This document shows positions 1 to 13,969 of a stretch of 64,000 bases of DNA, piece after piece; position 1 is the stretch's first letter; every line of letters begins with the position of its first letter. Position numbers and translations under genes: made by a program. A model generated the notes under the pieces. That model was not told the origin of the DNA, did not search any database, and saw only the letters and a program-made list of their open reading frames with translations. The stretch comes from a virus. Lineage: Duplodnaviria > Heunggongvirae > Uroviricota > Caudoviricetes. The stretch lies in IMG/VR virus record IMGVR_UViG_3300022719_000283, positions 252,067 through 316,066 of that record; one strand, written 5' to 3'.

Positions 1-2287
1 TCTCTTCCTCTTCTTCACCGGCACGGTAAAGCTGCGTCATCCGTGCTTGCCGGCGCATCTCAGCCTCACGTGTCGTGACGTCCATCCGAGCCGCCTTCGC
101 CATGCCGTCTTCATCCGTCCACTGACGTGGGGGAGAGGCCAACACGTTTCGCATCTGGCTCTGGGTATCGACGTTGATCGATTCGGGCGTGAGGACATTG
201 CGCATGACAGCGCCGGTGAAGGCGGGCACGGCGACCCAGGAAGCCTCGATGAAAGACACGCCACCAGTAGGGTCAAGGGTGTCGTGGCCACACAACTCCG
301 CAGTCTTCCTTCGAACGCCGCGCTCATCGAAGAAAATGTTGCCCTTCTCATATTTAATGCACGGGCACATTTCCGTCTCATCAGCGGCGACATTCCCGCA
401 CTTAGTGCACGCGGTCATCGTTACGGAGCAGCCCATCGAGAGCGTGCTCATCTTCCCGCCCTCGATGTCACGGATCAGGCTCGTGTGACGGCGATCATTC
501 GCGACGAGAATATCAACGTAGACCGAGGGGCCGATGTCCCGAGCCACCGCGTCGATGATGCGACCCTTACTCTGTTCCTCAATCTGGACGTGTTCGACGA
601 ATGAATGTGCTCCGATGAATGTTCGGTAGCTCTTGAGAAGAACGGGACGATCCCATGAGTCGCAGTTGTGGACGGCGACACCGTTGGCGACGTAGCTGTG
701 GTCCTCCTCGACGTCGAAATTGTAGACGGGGCCCGCGTAATCGACCTCTCCGACAGACTGGACGATCTGGAGCTCGTAGCCGTTCAGGAACCGGAACTTG
801 GGCGCCTCCTGGATGTCGCCGCGCTCCTCGATGGCCCGCAAGTACGGAGCCTCGTACACCGTGCCCTGGACGAGGTCGCCGATCCAGGCGCCGCCGCACG
901 CCACGTTCCACGTCACATTCGGAGGCTTGGAGGGGTCGTTGACCACGCGGACATCCCCGTCGATCACGAGACGCGACCGGCCAGGAGACTCAGCCCGGGT
1001 CAGATGACTGGCTACCCCGAGCCGGTTGAGGATGATCTGCATCTGGCTCGCGAGGGACCGGCAGGCGGATGTTCCGGTCACGCGGACATCGCCCGCGTAA
1101 TTTTCCTTGGCCGTGTCCTGGAAACATCCGTCGCCTTCGAACCACCCTCGAACAATCTCCATCTGCACGTCGTGGGGAGCCCGGATGAGCGACGGGCACA
1201 GCGTCTTGGTCGTGGCGCCGTTTCCCCGGACCCACTTGGAAAAAAACGCCGCCGCGTCCCGGTTCGTCCGGGTCGTCACATGGATGCCGTTGTTGGCTGG
1301 GTGCTCCCGAACAACGCACTCGACTCCGAACTCCCGTCGCATCAGGTCGCAGACGGTCCTTGCGAGGGTGGGGGCCTCATCCGCGTGGAAAGCCCAGACG
1401 GCCCCCACGCGCTCGTTCCCGTTCCGTGAATCGAGCTCGTAGTAGCCCTCGGCCGCGAAAAGACCCACCAGGCGCGCCTGCGCGAGCGTGAGATCGACGG
1501 GCTCGACCTCGGACAGCACGGGCATCGTCACGAAGTCCCGGTCGGTCAGGTCCCGGGCCTCGACGAACTCGCCAGACTTCTCCGCTAGGAGCACGTCTTT
1601 CCTGACCTTCTTCTGGTACCAGCACTCCGAGGAGCAGTAGAACTTCCCGATCAGGTGCGTGGCGCAGCGCACGTTGTAGGAGGACTTGCTCCGTGCCGGG
1701 ATCCCGCAGTTGGCACATTTGTTCTCGCGGAAAACGAAGAAAGGATGCTCGGCGGTGGCGTAGATGCGGTCCGTGGTGGCGCGGGGCTTGATCTCGAAGA
1801 TCGCCTCGTCCACGTCCCGACGCATCACGGCGCGGACCCTCCGGGCACGACCCTTGTGGGACAGCACTTCGTCCCCTTCGCGAATCTCCTCGATGGGCCT
1901 GACGGTGCCGTCCGCCATCGTGATCATCGTGCCGGGGACGAAGCAGTTGTTGTTGATCCAGCCCTCGGTCTCCGGCGTAACGCGGTAGTTAGCCCACTTC
2001 CGGTTGACCGTGCGACCATGCTCGTTGACGTTGCCGAGCTTGACGTTCGGGACTTCCTCGGTGTCCACCGAGGCGACGATCGTGGCGTGGCTGAGAAGAT
2101 ACTGCTTCGGATCGAATTCCTGGCCGAGGATTTCCGACGCCTGTGCGACGAGATTAGGAGAGCTACTCGCCGTGCGGTAGGGCCCGTTGGCTAGCACGGA
2201 CCGGTTCTGTCCCACGAAATTTCCCCAATTTTCCGGTGAGAAATTCCGGTGGACAAGAACTCCATGTGCTTTCTTGAGGAAAGCCAT
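1..2287 (-). CDS. Prohead (capsid maturation) protease with intein; runs off the left edge, so it is missing from the ORF track
   Basis: Manual translation from ATG 2287 (MAFLKKAHG...) is open to position 1. Spliced extein reads WINNN|CDSWDRPVLLKSYRTFIGAHSFVEH...SKGRIIDAVAR...TLSMGC...CTKCGN...FIEASWVAVPAF. This fits the N-x-N-(G/C)-D, His and LSMG pattern of phage prohead serine proteases. It lies in the head operon. Confidence 0.8.
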   Translation of the reverse strand, partial: MAFLKKAHGVLVHRNFSPENWGNFVGQNRSVLANGPYRTASSSPNLVAQASEILGQEFDPKQYLLSHATIVASVDTEEVPNVKLGNVNEHGRTVNRKWANYRVTPETEGWINNNCFVPGTMITMADGTVRPIEEIREGDEVLSHKGRARRVRAVMRRDVDEAIFEIKPRATTDRIYATAEHPFFVFRENKCANCGIPARSKSSYNVRCATHLIGKFYCSSECWYQKKVRKDVLLAEKSGEFVEARDLTDRDFVTMPVLSEVEPVDLTLAQARLVGLFAAEGYYELDSRNGNERVGAVWAFHADEAPTLARTVCDLMRREFGVECVVREHPANNGIHVTTRTNRDAAAFFSKWVRGNGATTKTLCPSLIRAPHDVQMEIVRGWFEGDGCFQDTAKENYAGDVRVTGTSACRSLASQMQIILNRLGVASHLTRAESPGRSRLVIDGDVRVVNDPSKPPNVTWNVACGGAWIGDLVQGTVYEAPYLRAIEERGDIQEAPKFRFLNGYELQIVQSVGEVDYAGPVYNFDVEEDHSYVANGVAVHNCDSWDRPVLLKSYRTFIGAHSFVEHVQIEEQSKGRIIDAVARDIGPSVYVDILVANDRRHTSLIRDIEGGKMSTLSMGCSVTMTACTKCGNVAADETEMCPCIKYEKGNIFFDERGVRRKTAELCGHDTLDPTGGVSFIEASWVAVPAFTGAVMRNVLTPESINVDTQSQMRNVLASPPRQWTDEDGMAKAARMDVTTREAEMRRQARMTQLYRAGEEEEE
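665..1945 (-). mobile_element. Intein (427 aa) with LAGLIDADG homing endonuclease, in the prohead protease
   Basis: Starts CFVPGTMITMADG; block B is YATAEHPFF; LAGLIDADG-like motifs are LVGLFAAEG and IVRGWFEGDG; ends VYNFDVEEDHSYVANGVAVHN followed by +1 Cys. Confidence 0.95.
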
Positions 2288-2288
2288 C

Positions 2289-2927: not shown

Positions 2928-2938
2928 TCAGCTTCCTC

Positions 2939-3925
2939 TCAAGCGAAAAGTTCGTAGCCGTGATCCAGGGTTTCGAAGATGTCCTGGTAGGCGGACTTGT
3001 CGACGACGGGCTTGCCGTCGTCATCCTCGCCGGGAAGGTCCTCTTCCATGGAAGGATCGGGGTCCTTGGAGTCGGCTTTCTTGCTCGACTTCTTCTCATC
3101 CTGGGTGGTGCGGTGTCCCGGCACCCAGCCCTCGTCCTCTTCCCCCTCTTCCTTCGGACCTTTGGACTCGTTGCCAGGAACGCGAGAATCGGCCTTCTTG
3201 CTCGATTTCTTCTCGTCGTCCTTGTCCCCGTCCTTGTCCCCGTCCTTTTTGGCCTCGGCCTCTTCCTTTTTCTTCTTGGCGTTCTCAATGAACTCGGGAG
3301 GGAGGCCCGCAGTCAGGTTGTAGCCGTGGAATCCGACAACTCCGGCGGCCTTTTCAACGACGACCTCTTCCTCGATCTCAGCTTCTTTTGGCTTCTCCGC
3401 AGGTTTTTCCGCGTGCTTGAGGGTCTTGCGCACGGCGTTTTCGGCTGCTGAGCACACACGGGAGAGCGCTTTGACACTCTCCTTGATGCTTCCTGCACGT
3501 TTCGCGTCTTCCTTCGCCTCTCGGAGAGCCTTGACGGCAGCGGCCACGCGGCGCAGACCATCGATGGTTTCTTCGATGATGTTCACGACATGGGCTTCCA
3601 GCGGATGAGCCATGCGGTCGGAGATGCGGCTTAGAGCCGACCCCATTCGGGGGCGCTCCATCAACTGGCGCACATCACCGCTGAGGGCATGCAAAAAGCC
3701 ATCGAACCCAAGCAGGCAGTCCTTGGCTTCGCGGACGTACTTCTGCTTGTCTTGGAGGGCTTCGCAGGCTTCTTTGAGACGCCCAACACCATCCGCGTGG
3801 TCCTTCCCGGCATCCTTAGCCATCACATCCGCAGCACGGCAAACCTTGGTGATCTCCTCGTCGAGATCACCAAGGCGGTCGATGAAACTACGTGTCTGCA
3901 TGAGCGACAAACCGTGCATAGGCAC
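2939..3925 (-). CDS. Charged coiled-coil protein, possibly scaffold or internal head protein
   Basis: 328-aa ORF; helical N-half and acidic/basic low-complexity C-half; DEKKSSKKADS occurs twice. Confidence 0.55.
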   Translation of the reverse strand: MPMHGLSLMQTRSFIDRLGDLDEEITKVCRAADVMAKDAGKDHADGVGRLKEACEALQDKQKYVREAKDCLLGFDGFLHALSGDVRQLMERPRMGSALSRISDRMAHPLEAHVVNIIEETIDGLRRVAAAVKALREAKEDAKRAGSIKESVKALSRVCSAAENAVRKTLKHAEKPAEKPKEAEIEEEVVVEKAAGVVGFHGYNLTAGLPPEFIENAKKKKEEAEAKKDGDKDGDKDDEKKSSKKADSRVPGNESKGPKEEGEEDEGWVPGHRTTQDEKKSSKKADSKDPDPSMEEDLPGEDDDGKPVVDKSAYQDIFETLDHGYELFA

Positions 3926-3968
3926 CTCCAGAAACCGGCAGCTTCAAAACAAAAGCCGCCGAGGATGG

Positions 3969-4487
3969 TTAGTCCTTGACGACCTTGGGACGGGGAATGT
4001 TGTTCTTCTCGAGCAGCTTGGCCATCTTTTTCACGAGCTCGGAAGCGGCCTTGGCGTTGCTGAACATTCCGTCCTGCTGGACCTGACGAAGCTGGTCGAA
4101 CTCGTCCTGCTTGAAGACGTCCATGTAGGGTTCGTCCTCATTACGCAGGAGGGCACCGGACTGCTCCTCACCGATCTCGGCGGGGTTGAACTCCCAACCC
4201 TGGACCTGCTCCTCGGTCTCGTTCTGCTTGGGGTCCATCTCCGCCTGCTTCTCGATGGCCGAGGCAAGCTTGGCGATCTCGGGGTCCTTGAACTGGCCGT
4301 TATCGGTGCGCTCAATGCCGGCGGTCTTCTCGACCTCCCGGCTCAGAAGATCGCAACGAAGACCAAAGTCCTCGGCGACTTTTGGCGAAACACCGAGAGC
4401 GGTGTGCTCCGTCTCGAAAAGATTGGCGATCCGGTCGAGGTCTCGAGTGACCTGCAACGCACCTTGCTTGCTGAGCTTCTTCGACAT
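3969..4487 (-). CDS. Hypothetical head-associated protein
   Basis: 172-aa ORF with a GAGGTG RBS; first gene after a candidate late promoter; contains KTAG, KLAS and KAAS. Confidence 0.65.
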   Translation of the reverse strand: MSKKLSKQGALQVTRDLDRIANLFETEHTALGVSPKVAEDFGLRCDLLSREVEKTAGIERTDNGQFKDPEIAKLASAIEKQAEMDPKQNETEEQVQGWEFNPAEIGEEQSGALLRNEDEPYMDVFKQDEFDQLRQVQQDGMFSNAKAASELVKKMAKLLEKNNIPRPKVVKD

Positions 4488-4582
4488 GTCGTTTTCACCT
4501 CTGGATATCTGGGGTGTCGCAAGGGCGCGTGCACGAACCCTCGGGGATCGAGGGGCAGCCCTTCACTTATTTGGCGGTTCGT

Positions 4583-4597
4583 ATAAGTGGAAAAACG
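4583..4597 (-). promoter_or_regulatory. Candidate late promoter motif (CGTTTTTCCACTTAT)
   Basis: Matches the recurring 15-mer CGGTTTTCnnCCTAT seen upstream of several virion genes. Confidence 0.45.
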
Positions 4598-4623
4598 AAC
4601 CAATCTGCACTTTTTCGGGTTCC

Positions 4624-4826
4624 AAACCCTCTCAACTGGAGTGACCTAACCCCGATCCGAGATTGAAGGGACTTTCGAAGCCCCTTCAATCTCTTGCCGG
4701 CCCCAAAAACCGACTCGAAGGGATAGAAAACCCCCCCGGCAGTGCTCCAGGGGAGTTTTTCTTCCCGCGCTATGGGGCCAAGAGGGTTTTTCAGGTTTGT
4801 AGGGAGAAAAAACCTCCCTACAAACC
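4624..4826 (-). ncRNA. Highly structured intergenic element (possible ncRNA, terminator or processing signal)
   Basis: Perfect 13-bp inverted repeat 4794-4806/4814-4826; long hairpin 4659-4693; hairpin 4720-4766; enclosing pairings GGCCCCA/TGGGGCC and AAACCCTCT/AGAGGGTTT. Confidence 0.4.
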
Positions 4827-4829
4827 CGG

Positions 4830-7800
4830 TTAGGCTGCCTCAACCACGATAAAAGGTCGGTTCGGATCGTCTGGGTGGAATGACTGAACGTGGGTCAGCC
4901 AGAGCTCAGCAACCTTGTCGGATGCCAAACGAGTGGGCCCTCGCTCCTCGATGGGGATGTTGAAATCGGCCGAGAATCCCTCGTCCTCAGCCTCCTCACG
5001 CCCTTCAGGGGCGTTTTCCCCCTTGGCGTATTGCTCGGCCTTGGCCTTATCCTTGAAAGACTTGGGAGTGCCTTTGCGATTCTTCGCACGCCAATTGCCC
5101 TGGTCCGTCTCCCAGACATCACCGGGACCGTGATTGTCATCCTGGACGGCTTCCTCCGCCTGCCCGATCACCCGGTCAAGTTTCTTGACCCGTTCGTCGA
5201 ACTTGGCCCGCGCACGCTCGGGCAACTTTTCACGTTGCGCTTCCATCTTCTTGCGCATGGCCCTGGCCTTGTCGAGACGCTTCCGGCGCTCTTGAGCCTT
5301 GGGAGTGTCCTCCTTGGGCTTCTTCTCTTTGGCACCGGGCCACGGCGAACCTCCACGGGCATGTGCTTCGGCCTCTTCCCGAGTCTCGAATCGTTTGCGC
5401 CACCCTCGATCGTCTTGTGACTCCCACTCCCCTTCACCTTCGGGGCCTCCCGGTGAACGCCAAAATTTGGCTCCCTTCTCCGAGACTTGGTACCAGTCAC
5501 GCTCCGGATCACTATCCACGTATTGCCCGGATTCTGCGGGCTTCGGCGCATCTGCACGTGCCTTTTCACGATCCTCCTTGGTGCGAGGCTCAGGAGTGTT
5601 GGCATCGGGATGGGGGAGCGTCTCCGTATCCATTACGCTTTTGTCCCCCGTCTCGACGAAGTTCTTGAAGACCGCGGTAGCAGGAGAGATGACCCACTTG
5701 TTGAACTTGTCCTTGAGAGTATCGAGCAGGCTTTGGGCCGATTCCTGAAGTCCTTTGCCTCCCTCGCCTAGAACATCCTGGACGAGCTGCTCATCTTGGG
5801 GATCGGGGCGCTCTCCTCGAGCTCGAGCCTCATCGATCCGTACCAGAGCGTCGAAGGCAGCTTGACGACCCGGTCCTCCGTTCGTCTTGGCTTCTTCGAT
5901 GATCTGTGCACGAACATCTGGATCGTCCCAATCCGTAGCTCCCGCTGCTTCCATCACGTCCCTGGTCGCACGATCTCCCCACACATCGTTCATCCAGTCG
6001 TCGATCAAAAAGCTCTTGATGAGCTGTTTGTACTCACTGCCACCAGGGCCAGAGTTTTGGAGGAGGCCCTTGAGACGCCGGAAGGGGTGGTTCGGATCGT
6101 CTCCCACGATGAATTCAGCAAGCTCATCGTCGTTCATATTGTTGAGGGCATTGCGCATGACTTGCCGACTTTCATCCGCAAACATGTCTCCCACGGGCTT
6201 GAACATGGTCGCAATGTTGCCCCCTTCAGCTAGGCGGCGAATCAGAGCGGCAGGTCCTTTGCTCACCTGGGGTTGGCCGGGAAGAGAGTCTCCTGTATCG
6301 GCCACGTGAGCCGTATTGATGCCCGTCAGAATGGCGCTAAGCTCTTGAGCTCGGTCGGTTTCGGGATCCAGGCCGCGTAGCTCCTCAGAAATCTTATTGG
6401 CTGCATCGCGGCGCAAGATGCCATTAAGACGAGAGAAAGTGTTGTAACCATCCAAGGCACGGTTGCCGTAGGCCACCTCATCCATCTCGGTTTGACCAAC
6501 GGGTTTGGCTCCCGCGATCATCGGGTTCGCCACTACGTTGCGTGTATACGCAATCTTCGCCAGACGTTCACCCAGTTCATCCGGAGCGTTCTGACCTTGA
6601 GTGCTGAACCCGGACTTCGCCATCGCGTTGGCAACCGAGACGGCCTCATCGGAAGTGGGATCCTGATCGGTGAGTTTCTGGAGCGTGTTCTCGAACTCCA
6701 GCGAAAACTGCTCCATCTCGTCATCGTTGAACTTGTCGAGCTTGGCTTCGATCTCAGCCTTCACATGGCGTGGGAGTCTCGACCCTTTGCCCATGAGAGA
6801 CTCCATCGTCTCGACGGTGCGCTCTATGGCTTCACGCCTGCGTTTTTCCTGCTCGCGTTTCTTCTCTTGCTTTTGCTGGCGCTTCTCTTGCTTTTGCTGG
6901 CGCTTCGCCCCGGAGGGGTCACTGCGCTCAGCTTTGAGCTCTTCCACGCGCTGTTGCTTGTAATTGAGGTCCTCCTTTTTCTCCTTGAGTTCCTCTTCGG
7001 TTTCGTCGAGTTTCTTTCGCTCTTCCTTGAGTTGTGCTTCGGGGTCTTCGGCCGCTTGCTCCTGGGGCTCTTCCTCAAGTTTCTTCTCGAGGAACTCCAC
7101 AGCCTTGGCGCTTTCACGCCCTGATTTGCGCAAGGACTTGTACTCGGCCTTCTTCTCCTTGAGCGCCTCTTTGACGTCGTCGAAATCCCCATCTGCTTCA
7201 CGAATAGCCTTGCGGGCCTCGGCCACCATGCTTTTGAATCGTTCCACTTGCGGATGATCCTCACCAAGCTGCTCAAGGTATCCTTTCGCGTCCTTGATGA
7301 CCTTCTGCTGGGACTTGATCTCCTTCTTCAGATCGTCAGACCGGTCCTCCAGCTTGTCCATTTCCTTCCCCAGCGGTTTCATCCGCTGGACGGTCTCTCG
7401 CATCTTCTGTTTCTCTTGATCGATACGGGCCTGGATCTTCTCCTTGCGGGCTTCCGGGTCCATAGGAGGCTTACGGGACTTCCGGCGCAGCTTGTCGATA
7501 TTCTTTTTGTGTTCCTTGATCTGCTTTTGCAGCTCTTCGACAGAGAGCTCGAGCTCATCTACCTCATCACGTACCTCTTGCAGGTCTTCATCGATGTCTT
7601 CGCGTGTACGCTTCCCTTCCTCTTCGCCCTTCCCTTTCTCTTTCTTGCCTTCCTCTTCTTTGGCACCAGGGAACTGACGACGGTACTCGGCACGCACCTT
7701 CTCTGCCGCAGGAGGATCCTGCTTCTTGAGCCCCTCAAACCCAACCTCAGCACTGGGCGGGGCGTTTTTGGCCTTGCTGGGCCATCGCTTATCCTTGACC

Positions 7801-10800
7801 CATTGTTCGAAAGTGGGAGCCTCACGCTGCTGCCGTTGGCCCGTCGGGGCTTCCACCTCAGCAAGGCGGTGAATCAGACGCACTGATGAAGGGCGCGTCG
7901 GGGCTGCAACCCAACGCCACGCGACTCGATGGCCGACCTTGTTCCACTTCATGGAGAGGTCTCTGTCACCTTTATCTCCGCCTCCGAGGACCTCTTCCTC
8001 ATCCTCTTCGTCCAGTGTGCGGTTGTCACGGAGGTCGTAGCGCGGCGGTTTCTTCTTCGGCTCCTTGCGAAGCATCTTCTGGACCTGCTCCTCCTCCTTT
8101 TCCGCGTCCGACTTCGTGCCGGTCTTATCCTGGTGCTTGCACATGGAACACCGGGTGTTGTCGTTTCGATACTCCTCTGAATCGATCGGGATTCCCCACT
8201 TGAGGCCATAATGATGAGCGAGTCCGTTCATGCACCGACTACAGGACTGGCCAGCCACCATGATGGCATCCCCAACATCCCACTCCTCGCTGCGAACCAT
8301 GGCGGTAACGAGATCCCCGGGAAACGTAGAAGCCCCTCGGAAGATCTCCGAGCTCGTGCCGTCGTCATTCAGTTGAAGAATGCTGTGCACGAGCTCGTTC
8401 GGGAATTGGCTGTGCTGGGTGGTGGCGCCTTCAGGGGCCCCCAAGGGTCCTTCGTCAAAGTCCGGCTCTCCTAGACTGTTGCCCTCACTATCCTCGTACC
8501 AGAGCACCGTGAACAGCTCGGGGTCGAACTTGAGCCCGGGAATGTGGGGACGCGGCTTTTCATGATCTCGCGCAAGGCGATAGAGATTCGGAGCTTCTCG
8601 CAGCCACCACTTCCGGTCTCGTGCAACCAAGACCGGCGCATTCAGGGCGTTGGCCAGGATCCGTCGTTCTGTGAGAGTCCCTTGGGACGTGACTTGCCGG
8701 AGTCCGTAAGGGGGCAGCGCGTCCTTCTCACGGACCGGGCGGTCGAAAGGCTCGAGCTCTCCCGCGTCGTTGTAACGGCCTCTGATACCCACGTCGTAGC
8801 CGCCGTCTGCACGGGTCTCGAGCACGGCACCGCCGCTCTCCCGCACGTGCCGTTCCATCTCGTTCCAGGTAGCCTCCGAATCAGGAGACTGTATGGCTAC
8901 TGCTTCCGCGACGCTACCGGGCCACATCTGGTGAGACAGTTCGTACCACGGGGTGTCATCGAGCATGTCCTTGAGGGCGTCAGGAGCGATGACATAAAGT
9001 GCCCCGGTGTCGGTGACTGCTTCAGCTCCCTTCTTCGTATGGCTCTCACTGATGGTGCCGTCCTTCATGTATTCGTCCTCCAGCCCGGGGACGAGATACT
9101 GACTCTTGAGCGTGCTGGCCTCATGACCCACGCGCTCGGCCGTCGCCTCAAGGGCCTTCTTGAACTCGTCCTTCAGCTTCTTCTCGCGCTCCTTGGGATC
9201 GTCGGGCAGTTTGCCTTTCCGCACCTTCCGAAGCTGCGTCTTCATCTCCGTATTGGCGTGGAGCCCTCGGATGTCTTTGGCTGAGATCCCAAAGGGTTTC
9301 AGATACGCATTGACTTCCGAAGCCGACACGCTCAACACGCATTCGTTGGGTTTTTTGTCTGCGCACGCTTTCTTGAGCGCGCTGACAATCCGCGAATTCG
9401 TGATCTTCTTCTTTTGATCGACGCCGGACTTGCCCACATACGAGAGGGTCGCACTTCCATTGTGAAATTTGACGTGTTTGACACGCCAGGTGGTGACTCC
9501 GAAGTGCCCCTCTTTGGCACTCCCGTCGTTGCCCACACGCTCGAAGGTTTCGTCCATGAGACCCACCGCAAGGGCCACGTCACGAGTCTTCTCGTCTTTG
9601 GACTGGACATCCTTGCGGACTTTCGTCTGTAGCTTCTGCATCGATTTGCGTAGCTTCTCGACGCGTTCCGCCTTCTTACGATTTCGATCTGCCACCTGGC
9701 GATCGCTGTACTCGTAGACGGTCATCTCATCACCGTCTTTGGTCTTGACCTTCTTCTTCGACTTGTAGCGGGCCATCACCTGGCGTTTCAAGCTCTTTTT
9801 GGCGCTGGCGCTTTCCATCTCATCCGGCACCGTCACATACTGGTCCTTGAGCTCCTTCTTGGACGGGTACTGAAAAACGCGCACCTTGAGTTTGGGCTTT
9901 CGCCCATCCGGAAGAAGATTGCGGACGCCCTTGAACTTGGAATGCTCCGGGATCAAGTAGAGCAGGATCTCTCCCTTGGAAGGGTTGACGATCATCTGAG
10001 AGGTGGTGCGCATCTTGTCCGTGAACCGCACGGGATTGAGCGAACCGTCCGTTTTCTCGATGCTCTGCGTCAACACAGGCATCAAGTCCTCGGCTCGTTG
10101 AACCTTCTCAAGCTGCTTCTTAGCCTCCCACTGACGCACCACTGAAGAGATGTAGTCGTCACCTTTCGTGTAGCCCGCTCCAGGATAATAGATGCCGTGG
10201 TTGGTCCGGGTATAAACGTCATCTGACGACAGACTCACCACCTTCGGCGTGTGGATTTTGGAGCTCTCGAGCGCGTAAACCTTAGCGCCATCAGAGATAA
10301 GGGTGTGGCCCTTCAGGCCGCGTTTGAAAGTAGGTGGCTTGTAGGTGATCAGTGACCGTAGAACCTCGGGCAGGGTCTTCTTGGTGAGCGCCTTGACGAT
10401 CTTGATGCCATCCGGAGAGCGTTCAGGATCGCTATCTCCCTCCGACAATCCCTCACGCTCATCCTGAAGCACCATGAGAGAAGAGTTTACGATGCCGATT
10501 CCGTGCTCATTGATCCCTTCACAGAAGCCCGTGATGCGGTCGAACAGGATACATATCTCGGTTCCGTCAACCTCTAGGTGATAGACGCAAAGCGACGGGT
10601 TGTACATCCGATCACGCACTTTGCCTAGCACAACGTCGCCATCGCACTTTTTGGAAAAGACAATACACGCTTGCTTCTGCTGGGCCTCTGCTTTCCAGAT
10701 CTTGTAGAGACCCATCGTTCGGTTCTTCTTGCGGCCCTTGGGAACCGGCTCGATCTCCACCGATGGGACACCACGATCATCGTCGAAGAACCGCACGATC

Positions 10801-10892
10801 TTGCCACACTGGTTCTTGTACTTGCCGAACCGCACCTCATCTCCGACGGAGAACTCCGTCTGGCCCGCTGCATGTTGTTGAGGGGATTTCAT
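4830..10892 (-). CDS. 2020-aa multi-domain (polyprotein-like) virion protein: SH3-like + Ntn hydrolase (C45/AAT-like) + DNA topoisomerase IB catalytic domain + Cys-cluster domain + long coiled coil + helical C-terminus
   Basis: Ntn motifs C76-IVFSKK...LGKVRDR and EGINEHGIGIVNSSL. Topo IB catalytic pentad at about 9030-9776: ERVGN (R), VGKSG (K), KDIRG (R), RVGH (H), KSQYL (Y, codon 9096-9098). Heptad-rich region at about 6850-7650. Confidence 0.85.
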   Translation of the reverse strand: MKSPQQHAAGQTEFSVGDEVRFGKYKNQCGKIVRFFDDDRGVPSVEIEPVPKGRKKNRTMGLYKIWKAEAQQKQACIVFSKKCDGDVVLGKVRDRMYNPSLCVYHLEVDGTEICILFDRITGFCEGINEHGIGIVNSSLMVLQDEREGLSEGDSDPERSPDGIKIVKALTKKTLPEVLRSLITYKPPTFKRGLKGHTLISDGAKVYALESSKIHTPKVVSLSSDDVYTRTNHGIYYPGAGYTKGDDYISSVVRQWEAKKQLEKVQRAEDLMPVLTQSIEKTDGSLNPVRFTDKMRTTSQMIVNPSKGEILLYLIPEHSKFKGVRNLLPDGRKPKLKVRVFQYPSKKELKDQYVTVPDEMESASAKKSLKRQVMARYKSKKKVKTKDGDEMTVYEYSDRQVADRNRKKAERVEKLRKSMQKLQTKVRKDVQSKDEKTRDVALAVGLMDETFERVGNDGSAKEGHFGVTTWRVKHVKFHNGSATLSYVGKSGVDQKKKITNSRIVSALKKACADKKPNECVLSVSASEVNAYLKPFGISAKDIRGLHANTEMKTQLRKVRKGKLPDDPKEREKKLKDEFKKALEATAERVGHEASTLKSQYLVPGLEDEYMKDGTISESHTKKGAEAVTDTGALYVIAPDALKDMLDDTPWYELSHQMWPGSVAEAVAIQSPDSEATWNEMERHVRESGGAVLETRADGGYDVGIRGRYNDAGELEPFDRPVREKDALPPYGLRQVTSQGTLTERRILANALNAPVLVARDRKWWLREAPNLYRLARDHEKPRPHIPGLKFDPELFTVLWYEDSEGNSLGEPDFDEGPLGAPEGATTQHSQFPNELVHSILQLNDDGTSSEIFRGASTFPGDLVTAMVRSEEWDVGDAIMVAGQSCSRCMNGLAHHYGLKWGIPIDSEEYRNDNTRCSMCKHQDKTGTKSDAEKEEEQVQKMLRKEPKKKPPRYDLRDNRTLDEEDEEEVLGGGDKGDRDLSMKWNKVGHRVAWRWVAAPTRPSSVRLIHRLAEVEAPTGQRQQREAPTFEQWVKDKRWPSKAKNAPPSAEVGFEGLKKQDPPAAEKVRAEYRRQFPGAKEEEGKKEKGKGEEEGKRTREDIDEDLQEVRDEVDELELSVEELQKQIKEHKKNIDKLRRKSRKPPMDPEARKEKIQARIDQEKQKMRETVQRMKPLGKEMDKLEDRSDDLKKEIKSQQKVIKDAKGYLEQLGEDHPQVERFKSMVAEARKAIREADGDFDDVKEALKEKKAEYKSLRKSGRESAKAVEFLEKKLEEEPQEQAAEDPEAQLKEERKKLDETEEELKEKKEDLNYKQQRVEELKAERSDPSGAKRQQKQEKRQQKQEKKREQEKRRREAIERTVETMESLMGKGSRLPRHVKAEIEAKLDKFNDDEMEQFSLEFENTLQKLTDQDPTSDEAVSVANAMAKSGFSTQGQNAPDELGERLAKIAYTRNVVANPMIAGAKPVGQTEMDEVAYGNRALDGYNTFSRLNGILRRDAANKISEELRGLDPETDRAQELSAILTGINTAHVADTGDSLPGQPQVSKGPAALIRRLAEGGNIATMFKPVGDMFADESRQVMRNALNNMNDDELAEFIVGDDPNHPFRRLKGLLQNSGPGGSEYKQLIKSFLIDDWMNDVWGDRATRDVMEAAGATDWDDPDVRAQIIEEAKTNGGPGRQAAFDALVRIDEARARGERPDPQDEQLVQDVLGEGGKGLQESAQSLLDTLKDKFNKWVISPATAVFKNFVETGDKSVMDTETLPHPDANTPEPRTKEDREKARADAPKPAESGQYVDSDPERDWYQVSEKGAKFWRSPGGPEGEGEWESQDDRGWRKRFETREEAEAHARGGSPWPGAKEKKPKEDTPKAQERRKRLDKARAMRKKMEAQREKLPERARAKFDERVKKLDRVIGQAEEAVQDDNHGPGDVWETDQGNWRAKNRKGTPKSFKDKAKAEQYAKGENAPEGREEAEDEGFSADFNIPIEERGPTRLASDKVAELWLTHVQSFHPDDPNRPFIVVEAA

Positions 10893-11527
10893 TCGGACAG
10901 CCTCCGAATCTCAGCGAGGTAACGAGCAGCCACACGATGGTGCAGGTTTCTTCGGAGCCACCGATCGCTGATCTTACGAATGGATGGCCCAAACTTCACC
11001 TTGTGAACTTTTGGCAGCCCCCATACCTCCATCTCCTCGAACCGCCAGGATCCCTGCGGCACTTCGTCATTCCACTTGCTGTCCATGCCAGGCATGTAGG
11101 CCAAAGTGACGTGCGGCTTGAACTCTGGAAATTTGTCCCCGACGGCAATGCCTGCATCCGTGAGCTCCTGCTTGATACGCTGCTTGAACCCGGCCAAGTC
11201 CTTATCGAACTCGACCGTCACGTGAGGGACACGGCGATCCTGGTCGTGCTGATCGAAGTACTCGAGCTTGCCCAGTCGGGCTTCGCACAAGGGCCACCAG
11301 CGGCGACAGCAATCCTTCAAGATCTCAACGAGCTGATCTTGTTGCTTCTTGCCCTTGAAATCTCCGATGTACAGAAAGGTGACATGGGAGGGAGAGGTGT
11401 CTTCGTTGCCCAGGCTGGGGAACTTCTTGGCGAGATCCTTCGGAAGAGGAATGAATAAGCCAACCGATTCCCCGTTGCCGGCTTTGGTGCCTGTTGCCTT
11501 GGCGACACGCTGCAACGAAAAGGACAT
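10889..11527 (-). CDS. 2H phosphoesterase (2'-5' RNA ligase / Acb1-like fold)
   Basis: Two HxT motifs (SHVTFLY and PHVTLAY) with typical spacing; RVA tags at both termini. Confidence 0.85.
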   Translation of the reverse strand: MSFSLQRVAKATGTKAGNGESVGLFIPLPKDLAKKFPSLGNEDTSPSHVTFLYIGDFKGKKQQDQLVEILKDCCRRWWPLCEARLGKLEYFDQHDQDRRVPHVTVEFDKDLAGFKQRIKQELTDAGIAVGDKFPEFKPHVTLAYMPGMDSKWNDEVPQGSWRFEEMEVWGLPKVHKVKFGPSIRKISDRWLRRNLHHRVAARYLAEIRRLSE

Positions 11528-12001
11528 CTAGCCTTCCTTCTTGGACTTCGCATCCGCAGCGTCCATCTGGCGGACAACTTTGGCTGCCCACGATTGTCCT
11601 GGATCACCGCCCCACATAAGCCATGCGACGTACCCATTGTCCTTCCAGGGCTCACCCTTGTGTTTGGCGTCGATGGCCTTGTTCTTCTGGTGACGGTTGA
11701 AAAAGTTGCTCATCCGCCGCACGGTTTCGGGAGACATCGTGTCCCGGTTCTTGAGGTTCACCGCACGCTGAACCCCACTACCGATCCCAGCCTTGGACGC
11801 TTCCCCAACGGAGAGACCGGCCTTGTCACCCTTCTGCTTCTTGCGGTACTCGAGGCCGCGCTCCGCCGCCTTGGCAACAGACTCCGGGGGCTTGAAGTCG
11901 ATGTGCTCGTACTTGCCCTTGGCAAGCTTCACGTTCGCCTGCCGGAGCAGCCACCGGGCGGCCACGCGCTTCGTGAAATTGCTGTCGAAAGGTCTCGGCA
12001 C
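11528..12001 (-). CDS. Conserved phage head-associated domain protein
   Basis: DFKPPESVAKAAERGL...TVRRMSNFFNRH...VAWLMWGGDPG is a motif I recognise from phage head operons; N-terminal RVAARWL tag. Confidence 0.65.
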   Translation of the reverse strand: MPRPFDSNFTKRVAARWLLRQANVKLAKGKYEHIDFKPPESVAKAAERGLEYRKKQKGDKAGLSVGEASKAGIGSGVQRAVNLKNRDTMSPETVRRMSNFFNRHQKNKAIDAKHKGEPWKDNGYVAWLMWGGDPGQSWAAKVVRQMDAADAKSKKEG

Positions 12002-12027
12002 TGGAAGCCCCTGCTAGGGGCGCTCCG

Positions 12028-12042
12028 ATAGGCCGAAAACCG
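12028..12042 (-). promoter_or_regulatory. Candidate late promoter motif (CGGTTTTCGGCCTAT)
   Basis: Best match to the consensus; 27 nt upstream of the GTG at 12001. Confidence 0.55.
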
Positions 12043-12044
12043 TC

Positions 12045-13922
12045 CTAGAAACGCGGTCCTACGCCAGGTTCTTCGGGCTTCTTGTAGTCGAGCCCCAAGG
12101 ATTCCGCAATCTTCTGAACGAGGTCCGACCCCTCGATGAGCTGGTCTCCAGCTCGGCCATAGGCCGAGCGCAGCACTTCGTTGAACTGCGCATCATTGAA
12201 TGTCGCGAAGTCGCGTTCGAGGCGCTCTCGAACCATAACCGGATCGATGTTGAGAAGGTCCAGAATGGTTTCGACATCCAAGGATCCCTTTTGATAAAGC
12301 TGGAACAAGGCGTCGAAAGTGTCCTGATTATCTCGAAGGGCGAGACGAGTGAAGCTGAGCTTCGGGTAGATCACCACATCCTGCCCGTCTTCATCCGTTT
12401 CGATGAAACCCATACGGCGACACATAGGCTTGAAGAAGTACTCCTCGACGAGCCTCTGCACATTCTCCCGCAGGAGCATGTACCTCGTATTGATGACCTC
12501 AAGGTTGATCCGGTCACCGGAGTACGAGGACTCACCGTTTAGGAGAGTTTCGGTGACCCCCAAACCAGCGTAGAGCTGCCGGGACACCAGATCATACTCA
12601 CCAGTGAGCTCGAGGAGACGACCGTTGGAGTTCATCTCCTCCCAGGTCACCTGGAAGTTCGTGACGATCGAGTAGTCAGGATCCTGGAGAGCCAGATCAA
12701 TCTGGTCGCGCAAAGCTTCGGTATCTCCCTCATCCATATCCTCGGCGTACACGAGGCGGATGGGCGTCATGTGCCGGGAAGCAATACTTGTCTGGGCTTG
12801 GCGCAGCTTGTCGAAGTACACCAAAGTCCGCAAACACCGCTGGAGGATGCTGTGTCCACGCGGTTCGTACTGGCTCTTCTTATTGGCCATGTAGTGGACA
12901 AACGAGCCGCCATTCGGATCCGTCGACAGCGGAATGTTGTCCCCACGACGAAGGGCCTCGACCACGGTGGGATCCATGGAATCCGCCACTCTTTGCGCGT
13001 TGCGGTCTCCCTGGTCGGCCATCTCCAAAACATGCTTCGTCTTGGCGTCCGGAATGAGCTCGATGATGACCTCGTCCGTGAACGGGAAGGTCTGGATGTG
13101 GACCTGCTCCGGAGGCAAGATGCGGATCTTGGTCCAGCCAGTGTAGTTCTTCTTCTGCCACGCGACCGTGCGGTCATTGGCATCGTCGCGCTCGATCCAC
13201 TCCTCCGTGAGAGTCCCATCGGCCTCGACGCGCCGAACTACCTTCTCACGGATCTCCCGAGGCATCTCGGGATTCCCGTCTTCGCAGAAGATGTAAACCT
13301 CGCCGATGAGATAGTAGTCGTGAACGATCTCGATCAGACGTTGGAGTAGCCCGATCTTCTCCACCCACTTTTCGCAGAAGCGCAACGCTGCCGCGGCCAT
13401 CTTTTCACTTTTGGCTGAAGGTCGAGCAAGCCTGACCTTCGACAAGGGGAGCTCGGTGTGCAGGTCGATGGCTTGACCCACAAACGGTTCGTTGTTGTAG
13501 AAGAACCGGTAATAGTTCCACTGCTCGTTGAGCGACTGCGGAAGCTCAAGGAAATCGGTACTGAGCTCGGGCGAATAGAAGTTCCCAGCACTGGCATCTG
13601 CAACAGCACCAGACCCAAAGTTTCCTCCGAATCCGCCGCCTCCTCCGATACCCCCGCCTCCTCCGCCACCGACAACACCACCAACACCACCAACACCACC
13701 ACCCCCAGCCGCGGCCACGCGAGCACGAAAACCCCCCGGCCCTCCTGCGCTACGCATAGATCCGGAGATAGCACGAGGTTTCCCCACGCTCAGGTTGGGG
13801 CGCCGGTTTGGAATTTGGGCGACTTCCTCTTCCTGCTCGTTATGGGGAATCTGCGAAGGTGCTCCCGGGCCCGACACGGCCGTCTTATGGCCGCTCTTGT
13901 TGAAACCTGATCGGGTAGTCAT
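12045..13922 (-). CDS. Portal protein
   Basis: FFYNNEPFVGQAIDLHTELPLS, SILQRCLRTLVYFDKLRQAQ and LYAGLGVTETLLNGESSYS are portal-like motifs; near terminase; Gly-rich N-terminal extension. Confidence 0.85.
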   Translation of the reverse strand: MTTRSGFNKSGHKTAVSGPGAPSQIPHNEQEEEVAQIPNRRPNLSVGKPRAISGSMRSAGGPGGFRARVAAAGGGGVGGVGGVVGGGGGGGIGGGGGFGGNFGSGAVADASAGNFYSPELSTDFLELPQSLNEQWNYYRFFYNNEPFVGQAIDLHTELPLSKVRLARPSAKSEKMAAAALRFCEKWVEKIGLLQRLIEIVHDYYLIGEVYIFCEDGNPEMPREIREKVVRRVEADGTLTEEWIERDDANDRTVAWQKKNYTGWTKIRILPPEQVHIQTFPFTDEVIIELIPDAKTKHVLEMADQGDRNAQRVADSMDPTVVEALRRGDNIPLSTDPNGGSFVHYMANKKSQYEPRGHSILQRCLRTLVYFDKLRQAQTSIASRHMTPIRLVYAEDMDEGDTEALRDQIDLALQDPDYSIVTNFQVTWEEMNSNGRLLELTGEYDLVSRQLYAGLGVTETLLNGESSYSGDRINLEVINTRYMLLRENVQRLVEEYFFKPMCRRMGFIETDEDGQDVVIYPKLSFTRLALRDNQDTFDALFQLYQKGSLDVETILDLLNIDPVMVRERLERDFATFNDAQFNEVLRSAYGRAGDQLIEGSDLVQKIAESLGLDYKKPEEPGVGPRF

Positions 13923-13966: not shown

Positions 13967-13969
13967 GGA

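What the first reader, a model, noticed from the sequence alone, without database searches (positions are those of the whole stretch)
4830..10892. 2020-aa polyprotein-like ORF joining an Ntn hydrolase and a topoisomerase IB, with KQA|C directly before the nucleophile
Seen: one continuous ORF containing an SH3-like leader (aa 1-75), a C45/AAT-like Ntn hydrolase starting at Cys76 (codon 10665-10667), a full Topo IB pentad (R-K-R-H-Y, about 9030-9776), a CxxC/CxxC domain, a long coiled coil and a repeat-bearing tail. Tag-like motifs fall near domain borders (KQA|C, KRQVMARY, KKGA, HRVAWRW, RLASDKVAELW). Established: Ntn hydrolases are active only once the Cys becomes the N-terminus. Inference: cleavage after KQA, by the prohead protease or by self-processing, would switch on the hydrolase only in matured capsids and release a free topoisomerase for injection. 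I do not recognise this architecture from described phages.
Basis: partly seen in the sequence, partly recalled or inferred. Interest (0 to 1): 0.85.

Follow-up and report, generated by a model that had tools for sequence, protein, structure and literature searches.

The report
Head-cargo polyprotein with protease-primed hydrolase
A 619-kb uncultured phage encodes, next to its portal gene, one 2020-residue protein that strings together an amide hydrolase, a DNA topoisomerase and other modules; comparison with relatives suggests the phage's head protease cuts it apart and thereby switches the hydrolase on, which would be a new way of arming an enzyme carried in a virus particle.

Summary
The 2020-aa ORF (4830-10892, minus strand) is real and uninterrupted. 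Its parts check out. There is a small beta-barrel leader and a Cys-Ntn hydrolase fold in which Cys76 aligns with the mature N-termini of IAT, NAAA and BSH (Z 16-20). There is also a Topo IB with the full pentad (R452, K488, R542, H590, Y599), a CxxC..CxxC ribbon, a coiled coil and a conserved helical tail.

The gene lies between the portal and an intein-bearing, assemblin-like head protease. It belongs to at least 71 metagenomic Topo IB-centred "polyvalent" proteins. These swap their N-terminal enzymes and have modules bordered by RVAAR[YFHW] tags and [KR]-x-A sites. Two upstream genes here are fused into the polyprotein in a relative.

The main new evidence comes from 143 Ntn homologues. The residues before the Cys are either [ILV]-x-E, in phages with a T4-type S77 protease, or [KR]-x-A/G, in phages with this window's protease type. 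That protease's own catalytic domain ends in [KR]-x-A-S.

Cleavage in trans by the head protease is therefore the best reading. However, the classes form only one or two clades, and nothing has been shown biochemically. The scan had already noted this polyprotein class in other genomes.

The parts
4830..10892 (-). Whole 2020-aa polyprotein gene (P0001)
   Evidence: Single open frame. Independent assemblies hold relatives with the same module order at 57-65% identity.
10710..10892 (-). Leader, aa 1-61: small SH3/KOW-like beta barrel (strands 19-22, 28-37, 43-50, 58-61)
   Evidence: AF2 model, pLDDT 80-93 over the barrel. The same module is found in 24 of 71 relatives, mostly just before the Ntn domain. 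A related barrel follows the Ntn domain in P0152, pairwise E=0.008.
10665..10709 (-). Flexible linker aa 62-75 ending in K73-Q74-A75, then Cys76 (proposed cut between A75 and C76)
   Evidence: Low pLDDT at aa 62-75. [KR]-x-[AGS] precedes the Cys in all 56 homologues of this lineage class.
9858..10667 (-). Cys-Ntn amide hydrolase domain, aa 76-345
   Evidence: Fold matches at Z 16-20, with residue 76 on the nucleophile position. Foldseek E down to 9e-8 against IAT. NCBIfam C45_proenzyme E=8e-8. Invariant residues include C76, R93, D94, N231.
9765..9782 (-). Tag QVMARY (aa 371-376), a shortened form of the family's RQVMAE-RVAARY border before Topo IB
   Evidence: Alignment of 20 relatives; motif census.
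9024..9740 (-). Type IB topoisomerase module, aa 385-623, closed by HTKKGA (aa 618-623, nt 9024-9041)
   Evidence: Pfam PF01028 at 88.6 bits against a cut-off of 23.7. Pentad R452/K488/R542/H590/Y599. The alignment breaks right after [KR]-K-x-[AST].
8253..9023 (-). Conserved domain of unknown fold, aa 624-880 (core about 735-880)
   Evidence: Shared by 25 relatives. No PDB profile match and no Atlas lead.
8139..8243 (-). CxxC...CxxC zinc-ribbon-like element (C884, C887, C915, C918)
   Evidence: Read directly from the sequence. Kept in 18 of 71 relatives.
7911..7961 (-). Border element DLSMKWNKVG-HRVAWRW (aa 978-994)
   Evidence: An LSMKWNKV-like element followed by an RVA tag is present in 42 of 71 relatives.
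6738..7622 (-). Charged coiled-coil-like region, aa 1091-1385
   Evidence: 50-55% charged residues; only weak Pfam coiled-coil hits.
5583..6737 (-). Conserved helical C-terminal domain, aa 1386-1770. With Topo IB it is the most widely shared part of the family
   Evidence: Found in 46 relatives. No PDB profile match.
4833..5582 (-). Tail, aa 1771-2020, with two weak ~37-aa repeats (nt 5325-5435 and 4992-5102) and the C-terminal tag RLASDKVAELW (nt 4899-4931)
   Evidence: Repeat test. C-terminal tags in relatives, e.g. SDKIAARWLAHV and RVAARFLAYSTRTR*.
10889..11527 (-). 2H phosphoesterase (212 aa) with N-terminal QRVAKA and C-terminal HHRVAARYLAEIRRLSE*; its stop overlaps the polyprotein start
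   Evidence: Pfam 2_5_RNA_ligase2 E=1e-8; sequence. This module is fused into the polyprotein in P0008.
11528..12001 (-). 157-aa protein with N-terminal tag TKRVAARWLL; it forms the N-terminal module of the 3010-aa relative P0008
12045..13922 (-). Portal protein
   Evidence: PHROG 16240 E=2e-32.
2..2287 (-). Head maturation protease (955 aa in the genome, cut by the window edge) split by a Hint/LAGLIDADG intein
   Evidence: PHROG 18299 E=1e-9; intein domains. The model of an intein-less homologue matches herpesvirus assemblins at Z up to 11.7 and T4 gp21 at Z 10.1.

Best explanation
P0001 is most likely a capsid-borne cargo polyprotein of the 'polyvalent protein' kind.

Proposed mechanism (all steps inferred):
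1. It is made late with the head genes.
2. It is taken into the prohead with the help of short basic RVAAR[YFHW]-type tags.
3. The phage's assemblin-like head protease cuts it at [KR]-x-A sites that lie in or beside those tags.
4. One of these cuts, K73-Q74-A75|C76, leaves Cys76 as a free N-terminus. This is the state in which a Cys-Ntn hydrolase is catalytically competent (established for the family), so the hydrolase would be armed only inside assembling heads.
5. Other cuts (around QVMARY, and after HTKKGA) would free a minimal, catalytically intact Topo IB of about 245 residues and the remaining modules.
6. The pieces would leave the capsid with the DNA at infection.

Shown here: the folds, the catalytic residues, the gene context, the family-wide tags, gene fusions and splits at the tag borders, and the match between pre-Cys motif class and protease family.

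Not shown, only inferred: packaging, cleavage, the exact scissile bonds, ejection, and the substrate of the hydrolase.
For: 1. Head-module context. The gene order on the minus strand is TerL, portal, 157-aa protein, 2H esterase, P0001, three small ORFs, protease, acidic scaffold-like protein, decoration-like protein, capsid protein. In six of the seven related contigs where the protease was found, the Ntn gene lies 5-10 kb upstream of it.

2. Modularity at the tags.
- There are 63 strict RVAAR[YFWH] instances in 72 family proteins. They sit at N-termini, before Topo IB, after the Zn-ribbon element and at C-termini.
- In this genome the strict motif maps to real genes only in the post-portal cluster.
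- P0008 fuses our 157-aa protein, the 2H esterase and the polyprotein into one 3010-aa protein.
- In P0003's phage the split lies elsewhere.
- Many relatives begin exactly at the pre-Topo tag.

3. The pre-Cys motif follows the protease type.
- Of 143 homologues with an aligned Cys, 81 have P1 Glu, with P3 I/L/V in 80 of them. Another 56 have P1 Ala/Gly/Ser, with P3 Lys/Arg in all 56. Six have Met-Cys.
- Among IMG/VR contigs, the T4-type S77 protease is found in 0 of 10 A-class, 10 of 16 E-class and 4 of 5 M-class contigs.
- This window's protease type is found in 7 of 10 A-class and 0 of 21 E/M-class contigs.
- Chryseobacterium phage MA9V-1 (LNE|C) has S77. This genome has none.

4. The protease itself. 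In 73 intein-less homologues its catalytic domain ends in [KR] (69/73)-x-A (67/73)-[S/A/R]. This is the position of the release site in herpesvirus assemblins, which cut after Ala (YLQA-T and VQA-S in PrV; PMC4498786). The protease fold is assemblin/gp21-like.

5. Other borders. The border after Topo IB is [KR]-K-x-[AST] in 20 relatives, and the alignment breaks there.

6. Leaders on stand-alone proteins. Stand-alone A-class Ntn proteins carry 17-21-aa leaders made of a tag plus [KR]-x-A|C, for example VARVVQAHLRKA|C and MVASRRVA|C. E-class proteins carry 12-28-aa leaders ending [ILV]-x-E|C. Their neighbours share N-terminal tags, as T4 internal proteins do (T4 CTS: PMC3012670).

7. The junction lies in a low-confidence, probably flexible linker.
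Against: - The closest characterised relatives (IAT, NAAA, acid ceramidase, Tan) all expose their Cys by self-processing, so no outside protease is needed in principle.
- The two motif classes are strongly clustered on the Ntn tree. The A label needs only 1-2 changes. The link with protease family is therefore essentially one historical event and could reflect shared ancestry.
- [KR]-x-A is short and common in a Lys/Arg/Ala-rich protein.
- Several relatives start MKKEA|C, with only a 5-residue leader, which offers little for a protease to recognise.
- The strict tag occurs in only a handful of genes in this genome.
- There is no proteomic, read-level or biochemical evidence for packaging or cleavage.
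- Some polyvalent-type virion proteins, such as N4 vRNAP, are packaged uncut (PMC5512222).
Confidence: 0.5

Rival explanations
1. Classical self-activation. The Ntn domain cuts its own A75-C76 bond autocatalytically, as C45, NAAA and acid ceramidase precursors do. This releases the SH3-like leader, and the head protease plays no part at this junction. The lineage-specific residues before the Cys are simply inherited leader sequence.
For: All the closest structural relatives are self-processing Cys-Ntn enzymes. Relatives with 5-6-residue leaders (MKKEA|C, MNNKKA|C) and Met-Cys forms exist. The motif classes form only one or two clades.
Against: One autocatalytic chemistry would not be expected to keep P3 I/L/V with P1 Glu in 80 of 81 sequences of one class, and P3 Lys/Arg with P1 Ala/Gly/Ser in 56 of 56 of the other. 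The first pattern is the established T4 gp21 site and occurs in phages with S77. The second recurs at the protease's own domain border and at other module borders.
Confidence: 0.25
2. The protein is packaged, or acts, as one uncut giant protein, in the way N4 virion RNA polymerase is. The RVAAR-type motifs would be docking or linker helices, binding for example the acidic scaffold, the portal or DNA, and not cleavage sites. Only the leader may be removed.
For: Tags also sit at the extreme N- and C-termini of separate proteins, where cutting would remove only about 10 residues. That fits an address function better than a pure cleavage function. The family keeps a long coiled coil and a conserved helical tail.
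Against: Modules are freely split into separate genes and re-fused at the tag borders. The enzymes therefore work as separate proteins. An Ntn hydrolase with 75 residues in front of its nucleophile is expected to be inactive.
Confidence: 0.15
3. The protein is not virion cargo. It would be a late cytoplasmic multi-enzyme protein, for nucleic-acid handling and amide hydrolysis, that merely happens to lie in the head operon. It might be processed by another peptidase, such as the tagged C39-like peptidase at 60575-61453.
For: Packaging has not been shown. A papain-like peptidase with a C-terminal tag exists in the window. Stand-alone Topo IB genes in cultured jumbo phages lie among early or DNA-metabolism genes.
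Against: The position between portal and protease is conserved in relatives. A family member carries the hallmark polyvalent-protein domains ART-PolyVal and LPD3. The leaders parallel T4-type capsid-targeting leaders in the E-class phages.
Confidence: 0.1

Closest known systems
Polyvalent proteins of phages and conjugative elements (Iyer, Burroughs, Anand, de Souza, Aravind 2017, PMC5512222)
   Same: A very long protein that strings several unrelated enzymes together. It is encoded beside the portal and late genes, with extensive domain shuffling between relatives. It is predicted to travel with the DNA and to be cut into working units. Relatives carry 2H, NUDIX, GNAT, RNA ligase, ART-PolyVal and LPD3 domains.
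   Different: That paper does not list Topo IB or a Cys-Ntn hydrolase among the domains: 'topoisomerase' occurs only in its reference list and 'Ntn' not at all. No MuF, MPTase or LPD domain was detected in this protein. Processing here is proposed to be done by the head protease at [KR]-x-A sites, not by a built-in zincin peptidase.
Phage T4 internal proteins IPI-III and Alt: capsid targeting sequence removed by prohead protease gp21 (PMC3012670); giant-phage ejection proteins cut by gp245/gp175 (PMC10052503)
   Same: Short N-terminal leaders address diverse proteins to the prohead and are cut off by the head protease. The cargo is ejected with the DNA. The E-class relatives of the Ntn domain carry exactly such [ILV]-x-E leaders in S77-bearing phages.
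   Different: In this lineage the tag sequence (RVAAR[YFHW]), the P1 residue (Ala, not Glu) and the protease family differ: there is no S77 hit in this genome. Tags also occur internally and at C-termini of a polyprotein. The cut is proposed to create a catalytic N-terminal nucleophile, which I do not know to be described for T4 cargo.
Herpesvirus assemblin with release (R) and maturational (M) sites (PMC4498786)
   Same: The window's protease has an assemblin-like fold (Z 9-11.7). It also has the same layout: catalytic domain, conserved x-A|S-type motif, linker, scaffold-like helical part, conserved C-terminal tail. Assemblin cuts after Ala.
   Different: No sequence similarity is detectable. 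P3 is basic here rather than aliphatic or aromatic. The catalytic triad was not verified. The gene carries an intein.
Isopenicillin-N acyltransferase (MEROPS C45; PDB 2x1c/2x1d) and other Cys-Ntn amidases (NAAA, BSH/PVA, acid ceramidase, Tan)
   Same: The alpha-beta-beta-alpha Ntn fold, with Cys76 at the nucleophile position, and conserved Arg/Asp 17-18 residues after the Cys.
   Different: Sequence identity is 10-17%. Scores fall below the Pfam AAT and NCBIfam C45 cut-offs. P1 is Ala, not Gly. The domain sits inside a viral polyprotein and its substrate is unknown.
Poxvirus type IB topoisomerase (variola/vaccinia; PDB 2h7f, 1a41), a virion-packaged enzyme (packaging stated from general knowledge)
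   Same: A small Topo IB with the R-K-R-H-Y pentad; phmmer E=1e-9 to 2h7f over residues 68-279. It is proposed to be carried in the particle.
   Different: It lacks the poxvirus N-terminal domain (the alignment starts at residue 68). It is embedded in a polyprotein. Neither activity nor packaging has been tested.

Membership tests
Cys-Ntn hydrolase superfamily (PVA/BSH, C45, NAAA/acid ceramidase, C69) | Four-layer alpha-beta-beta-alpha fold | tested here: met
   VIA Z 20.0 (3gvz), 19.0 (NAAA), 18.1 (IAT) and 16-17.7 (BSH/PVA), over 197-241 aligned residues. Foldseek E 9e-8. Swiss-Prot AFDB hits are all Cys-Ntn enzymes.
Cys-Ntn hydrolase superfamily (PVA/BSH, C45, NAAA/acid ceramidase, C69) | Nucleophile Cys as the first residue of the mature catalytic chain | tested here: met
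   Model residue 76 is the first aligned residue opposite IAT C103, BSH C2, PVA C1 and acid ceramidase C143. The Cys is invariant in 90 aligned homologues.
Cys-Ntn hydrolase superfamily (PVA/BSH, C45, NAAA/acid ceramidase, C69) | Removal of everything N-terminal to the nucleophile | not testable with these tools
   This needs protein chemistry. Only the conserved pre-Cys motifs were analysed.
MEROPS C45 / Pfam AAT (PF03417) / NCBIfam C45_proenzyme | Score over the curated family threshold | tested here: not met
   Pfam AAT E=0.26, 11.4 bits against 23.2. NCBIfam NF040521 gives 32 bits against 85. Some homologues do reach PF03417. I therefore treat it as a sister family, not a C45 member.
MEROPS C45 / Pfam AAT (PF03417) / NCBIfam C45_proenzyme | Autoproteolysis at Gly-Cys | tested here: not met
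   P1 is Ala here. Across homologues it is Glu in 81, Ala in 51, Gly in 4 and Ser in 1. Autoproteolysis itself cannot be tested with these tools.
Type IB topoisomerase (Pfam PF01028) | Profile match over the gathering score | tested here: met
   88.6 bits against 23.7, E=5e-25.
Type IB topoisomerase (Pfam PF01028) | Catalytic pentad Arg-Lys-Arg-His-Tyr | tested here: met
   R452, K488, R542, H590 and Y599 align to the variola Topo IB motifs. They are conserved in 67-71 of 71 relatives.
Type IB topoisomerase (Pfam PF01028) | DNA relaxation activity | not testable with these tools
   Needs an enzyme assay.
Polyvalent proteins (Iyer et al. 2017) | Several unrelated effector or enzyme domains in one polypeptide of a phage or plasmid, with shuffled architectures among relatives | tested here: met
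   Ntn hydrolase plus Topo IB here. Relatives carry GGACT, NUDIX, PolyA_pol, RNA ligase, GNAT, SET, HAD_SAK_1, PAP2, 2H and DUF5661.
Polyvalent proteins (Iyer et al. 2017) | Hallmark domains (MuF, MPTase, ART-PolyVal, LPDs) | tested here: not met
   None was detected in P0001. The family member P0072 has ART-PolyVal and LPD3.
Polyvalent proteins (Iyer et al. 2017) | Late or virion gene context (next to the portal) | tested here: met
   Two genes downstream of the portal and upstream of the protease.
T4-type CTS / gp21 cargo system | S77 prohead protease and [LI]-x-E leader | tested here: not met
   There is no PF03420 hit in the 619-kb genome and the leader ends in KQA. The E-class relatives do meet this feature.
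Assemblin/gp21-fold capsid maturation protease (for the gene at 2-2287) | Assemblin-like fold | tested here: met
   The top 36 VIA rows are all herpesvirus assemblins or T4 gp21, Z 7.5-11.7. Foldseek probability is 0.91-0.99 but E is only 2e-3.
Assemblin/gp21-fold capsid maturation protease (for the gene at 2-2287) | Ser-His-His (or Ser-His-Glu) catalytic triad | tested here: inconclusive
   Invariant H62, H134, S68 and S185 exist, but I could not check residue equivalence to the triad.

The most novel reading that the evidence does not exclude
In a large clade of huge phages, the head maturation protease would also act as a zymogen activator. By cutting [KR]-x-A|Cys it would create the N-terminal nucleophile of a packaged Ntn hydrolase. 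T4-like phages would have arrived at the same trick with [ILV]-x-E|Cys. The RVAAR-type tags plus [KR]-x-A sites would form a general, portable 'load and cut' code by which these phages assemble swappable enzyme kits (topoisomerase, RNA-repair and nucleotide-degrading enzymes) for delivery into the host.
Probability: 0.4. Interest if true: 0.78.

Novelty: new variant of a known kind. Interest (0 to 1): 0.62.

Why it matters
If this reading is right, three things follow.

1. It gives a concrete and easily testable example of a virus coupling capsid maturation to enzyme activation. An Ntn hydrolase is inert until its Cys is the first residue, so a head-protease cut would guarantee that the enzyme is armed only inside particles.
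2. It would give the first substrate motif ([KR]-x-A) for a very large, uncharacterised family of assemblin-like phage proteases. The family has 1761 cluster representatives and no Pfam model.
3. It points to a tag-plus-site code that could be used to predict the injected protein set of uncultured huge phages, or to load foreign proteins into capsids.

A virion-borne Topo IB in a 619-kb phage would also parallel the poxvirus enzyme. It raises the question of how very long genomes are handled on entry.

Tried and rejected
- Pfam and PHROG scans of the whole protein and of six pieces: only Topo IB was significant, and there was no PHROG hit.
- phmmer of aa 1-400 against PDB found nothing.
- Profiles of the two conserved unknown domains (aa 624-880 and 1386-1770) against PDB found nothing significant. 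Atlas look-ups for both gave no usable hit.
- Pfam and PDB sequence searches with the protease, both the C-extein and an intein-less homologue, found nothing. Only the fold search placed it.
- A BLAST self-comparison of the tail found no repeats. Only a Smith-Waterman test gave a weak signal.
- I looked for a general, genome-wide use of the strict tag, for example in the capsid, scaffold or portal proteins. It is absent there. Only weak look-alikes were seen, such as VRIASAL in the scaffold-like protein.
- I considered that the RVAAR motif is itself cut as V-A-A|R, in assemblin-like V-x-A|S register, rather than R-V-A|A. The sequences cannot decide between these registers.
- I considered misassembly. 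It is unlikely given collinear relatives from independent samples.
- Complex prediction was not used. A protease-substrate pair is a poor case for it, and no single docking partner for the tag could be singled out.
- Literature searches for Topo IB in phage capsids or in huge-phage polyproteins found no description of this architecture.

Full report
**What is there.** The window comes from a single 618,736-bp virus contig. The ORF at 4830-10892 on the minus strand is one uninterrupted frame of 2020 codons. On the same strand the gene order is:
- large terminase (14696-16606)
- portal (12045-13922)
- a 157-aa protein (11528-12001)
- a 2H phosphoesterase (10889-11527)
- the 2020-aa gene
- three small ORFs
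- a head maturation protease interrupted by a Hint/LAGLIDADG intein (2-2287, continuing beyond the window to 955 aa)

Just outside the window follow an acidic scaffold-like protein, a decoration-like protein and a 292-aa capsid protein. The gene is therefore part of the head module.

**Domain checks.**
- *Ntn hydrolase.* An AlphaFold2 model of aa 1-375, built on 90 homologues, has mean pLDDT 85. It shows a small beta barrel (aa 19-61), a low-confidence linker (62-75) and a compact domain from 76 to about 345. That domain matches only Cys-Ntn hydrolases: CV2077 Z 20.0, NAAA 19.0, isopenicillin-N acyltransferase 18.1, bile-salt hydrolases and penicillin V acylases 16-17.7. Alignments start at model residue 76, opposite IAT Cys103, BSH Cys2, PVA Cys1 and acid ceramidase Cys143. 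Cys76 is invariant, as are R93, D94, N231 and others. By sequence it is only a distant relative of C45: NCBIfam 32 bits against a cut-off of 85, and Pfam AAT E=0.26.
- *Topo IB.* The module passes Pfam's threshold (88.6 bits). It has R452, K488, R542, H590 and Y599 in register with variola Topo IB. These residues are conserved in 67-71 of 71 relatives.
- *Other parts.* The CxxC..CxxC element, the charged coiled-coil-like stretch and the C-terminal motif are present. The 'repeats' in the tail are weak. Two conserved domains (aa 624-880 and 1386-1770) have no detectable known relatives.

**The family.** A search over the whole length found 71 proteins of 1100-3200 aa from many independent metagenomes. 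All contain Topo IB, and most share the helical C-terminal domain. The parts in front vary:
- Ntn hydrolase, in about a third of them
- GGACT/AIG2, NUDIX, a CCA-type nucleotidyltransferase, RNA ligase, GNAT, SET, HAD_SAK_1, PAP2, 2H, DUF5661
- in one case ART-PolyVal plus LPD3

 This is the pattern that Iyer et al. 2017 described as 'polyvalent proteins' (PMC5512222). That paper, however, does not list Topo IB or an Ntn hydrolase among the domains. No cultured phage record holds the architecture. Only four records matched any part, and there the Ntn and Topo IB parts are separate small genes. The collinear relatives also make a misassembly or frameshift fusion unlikely.

**Tags and borders.**
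- A basic motif with consensus [ML]-A-x-R-V-A-A-R-[YHFW] recurs 63 times (strict form) in the 72 proteins. It is found a few residues from the N-terminus, directly before Topo IB (RVAARYKSKKKVKTKDG), after the Zn-ribbon element (DLSMKWNKV-x-RRVAFRW) and 8-12 residues from the C-terminus.
- In P0001 the pre-Topo copy is shortened to RQVMARY, and the later copies are HRVAWRW and DKVAELW.
- A relative, P0008 (3010 aa), is a fusion of exactly these three gene products. In P0003's phage the split lies elsewhere: the 2H gene carries an extra module and the polyprotein starts MKKEA|C. Many relatives start right at the pre-Topo tag.
- Modules are thus exchanged, split and fused at the tags, so they must be able to work as separate proteins.
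- A tag profile also picked up two further tagged genes in the window.

**The junction before the nucleophile.** I collected 143 homologues of the Ntn domain with an aligned Cys, both polyprotein-embedded and stand-alone. The three preceding residues fall into sharp classes:

| Class | Sequences | P1 | P3 | Leader |
|---|---|---|---|---|
| E | 81 | Glu | Ile/Leu/Val in 80 | 12-28 aa in stand-alone proteins |
| A | 56 | Ala 51, Gly 4, Ser 1 | Lys/Arg in all 56 | 17-21 aa in stand-alone proteins |
| M | 6 | Met (Met-Cys start) | none | none |

- [ILV]-x-E is the established T4 gp21 / giant-phage prohead-protease site (PMC3012670, PMC10052503).
- In one 257-kb E-class phage the neighbouring genes share T4-like N-terminal leaders (MNLQESIRRILREE[IL]E) and include lysozyme-type genes.
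- Stand-alone A-class proteins have leaders made of a tag followed by [KR]-x-A|C, for example VARVVQAHLRKA|C, QRVAARHMSKEA|C and MVASRRVA|C. Some also have a C-terminal tag.

**Does the motif follow the protease?** In IMG/VR, 543 loci encode relatives. I fetched 80 of them: 54 E-class, 16 M-class and 10 A-class.

| Contig class | T4-type S77 (PF03420), | This window's protease type, |
|---|---|---|
| A | 0 of 10 | 7 of 10 (the three misses are the three smallest A-class contigs with no protease found, 27-63 kb) |
| E | 10 of 16 | 0 of 16 |
| M | 4 of 5 | 0 of 5 |

Chryseobacterium phage MA9V-1 (FLNE|C) has S77. This genome has none.

The window's protease family is large, with 1761 cluster representatives, many carrying one to three inteins, and it has no Pfam model. 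A model of an intein-less homologue (pLDDT 83) matches only herpesvirus assemblins (Z up to 11.7) and T4 gp21 (Z 10.1) at the top of the list. In 73 intein-less homologues the catalytic domain ends with [KR] (69/73)-x-Ala (67/73)-[Ser 36, Ala 10, Arg 9]. After that comes a variable acidic linker, a helical part and a conserved C-terminal tail. This is the layout of herpesvirus protease-scaffold precursors, whose release and maturation sites are cut after Ala (YLQA-T and VQA-S in PrV; PMC4498786). The border after Topo IB is likewise [KR]-K-x-[AST], and the alignment of relatives breaks there.

**Reading.** The simplest account of all this is as follows. In this phage lineage the assemblin-like head protease cuts after [KR]-x-Ala. 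RVA|ARY, KQA|C, KKGA|E and the protease's own KAA|S would all be instances of that site. The basic tags would also help to bring cargo into the prohead, as the T4 capsid-targeting sequence does. The cut before Cys76 would then create the free N-terminal nucleophile that Ntn hydrolases need. I put it at about 0.5.

**Caveats.**
- On a tree of 183 distinct Ntn domains the class labels need only four changes, and the A class only one or two. The match with protease family is in effect one or two historical events, not a statistical correlation.
- The nearest characterised enzymes all process themselves.
- [KR]-x-A is short.
- Some relatives have only a five-residue leader.
- Packaging, cleavage and ejection are all unshown.

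Rivals are classical self-activation (0.25), an uncut giant internal protein in which the tags are docking helices only (0.15), and a non-virion late enzyme (0.1).

**Function of the parts.**
- *Topo IB.* It is catalytically intact and is the invariant core of the family. By analogy with the virion-packaged poxvirus enzyme (general knowledge), it may relax or otherwise handle the very long genome on entry or during early transcription.
- *Hydrolase substrate.* This is unknown. Structural neighbours cleave non-peptide amides or dipeptides.
- *Hints of a cell-envelope target.* The small barrel that precedes the hydrolase here follows it in an E-class protein. E-class genes sit beside lysozyme and GH19 genes. 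Some relatives are fused to GGACT/ChaC domains. These hints are weak, and I hold the cell-envelope or gamma-glutamyl-type amide reading at roughly one in three.

**Relation to earlier notes of the scan.** Other agents have described the same polyprotein class, the K/R-x-A sites and address-like tags in other huge-phage genomes. I reached the same reading independently from this window. New here are the Ntn junction analysis, the typing of the protease family across contigs, and the fold assignment of the protease.

**Novelty.** This is a new variant of known kinds: polyvalent proteins, and capsid-targeted cargo processed by the head protease. The new elements are the Topo IB-centred architecture, the RVAAR/[KR]-x-A code, and the proposed creation of an Ntn nucleophile by a head protease.

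Noticed in passing
window 2-2287 (-), continuing to genome 251486-254353: The head protease gene carries a Hint/LAGLIDADG intein inserted after NNN, with C as the +1 residue. Across its family of 1761 cluster representatives, many members are 860-1850 aa with 2-4 separate matched stretches, which implies one to three inteins at different sites. Two relatives (G001, G006) have an intein at a second site. This protease looks like an intein hotspot.
   Followed up: partly
window 60575-61453 (-): A 292-aa Peptidase_C39_2-like (papain-like) protein, E=1e-6, ends in ...IRVAHRVARRFLEKK*. This is a C-terminal copy of the cargo tag. It could be packaged cargo or an alternative processing peptidase.
   Followed up: partly
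window 20717-21658 (-): A 313-aa protein has the N-terminal tag KRVAALYMARQ and a C-terminal DUF5661 domain (E=3.6e-12). The same DUF5661 sits between the Ntn and Topo IB modules inside relatives' polyproteins, so here that module is a separate tagged gene.
   Followed up: partly
L003 (257-kb IMG/VR contig), 600-20300: In a T4-like jumbo phage that carries an E-class Ntn gene, at least five neighbouring genes start with MNLQESIRRILREE[IL]E-type leaders and four with M+IIITESQ[FY]..L leaders. Adjacent genes encode GH19/PG_binding_1 and Phage_lysozyme proteins. This looks like a block of capsid-targeted cargo.
   Followed up: partly
proteins P0174, P0183 (loci L095): Stand-alone relatives fuse the Ntn domain to GGACT/ChaC gamma-glutamyl cyclotransferase domains. 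Several polyproteins carry GGACT in place of, or in front of, the Ntn domain. This may be a functional link to gamma-glutamyl amide substrates.
   Followed up: no
genome 249907-251445 (-), just outside the window: The 512-aa scaffold-like protein is extremely acidic, whereas the cargo tags and the region after them (KSKKKVKTK) are strongly basic. An electrostatic loading mechanism is conceivable. The protein also holds a conserved CVR[IL]ASA[LM] stretch resembling the tag.
   Followed up: no
L087 426-1169 (+) and window 2289-2927 (-): The gene just upstream of the protease in a relative encodes a 247-aa protein with an SH3-like stretch and a Cys-rich zinc-ribbon-like C-terminus. The 212-aa ORF in the same position in the window was not compared.
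   Followed up: no
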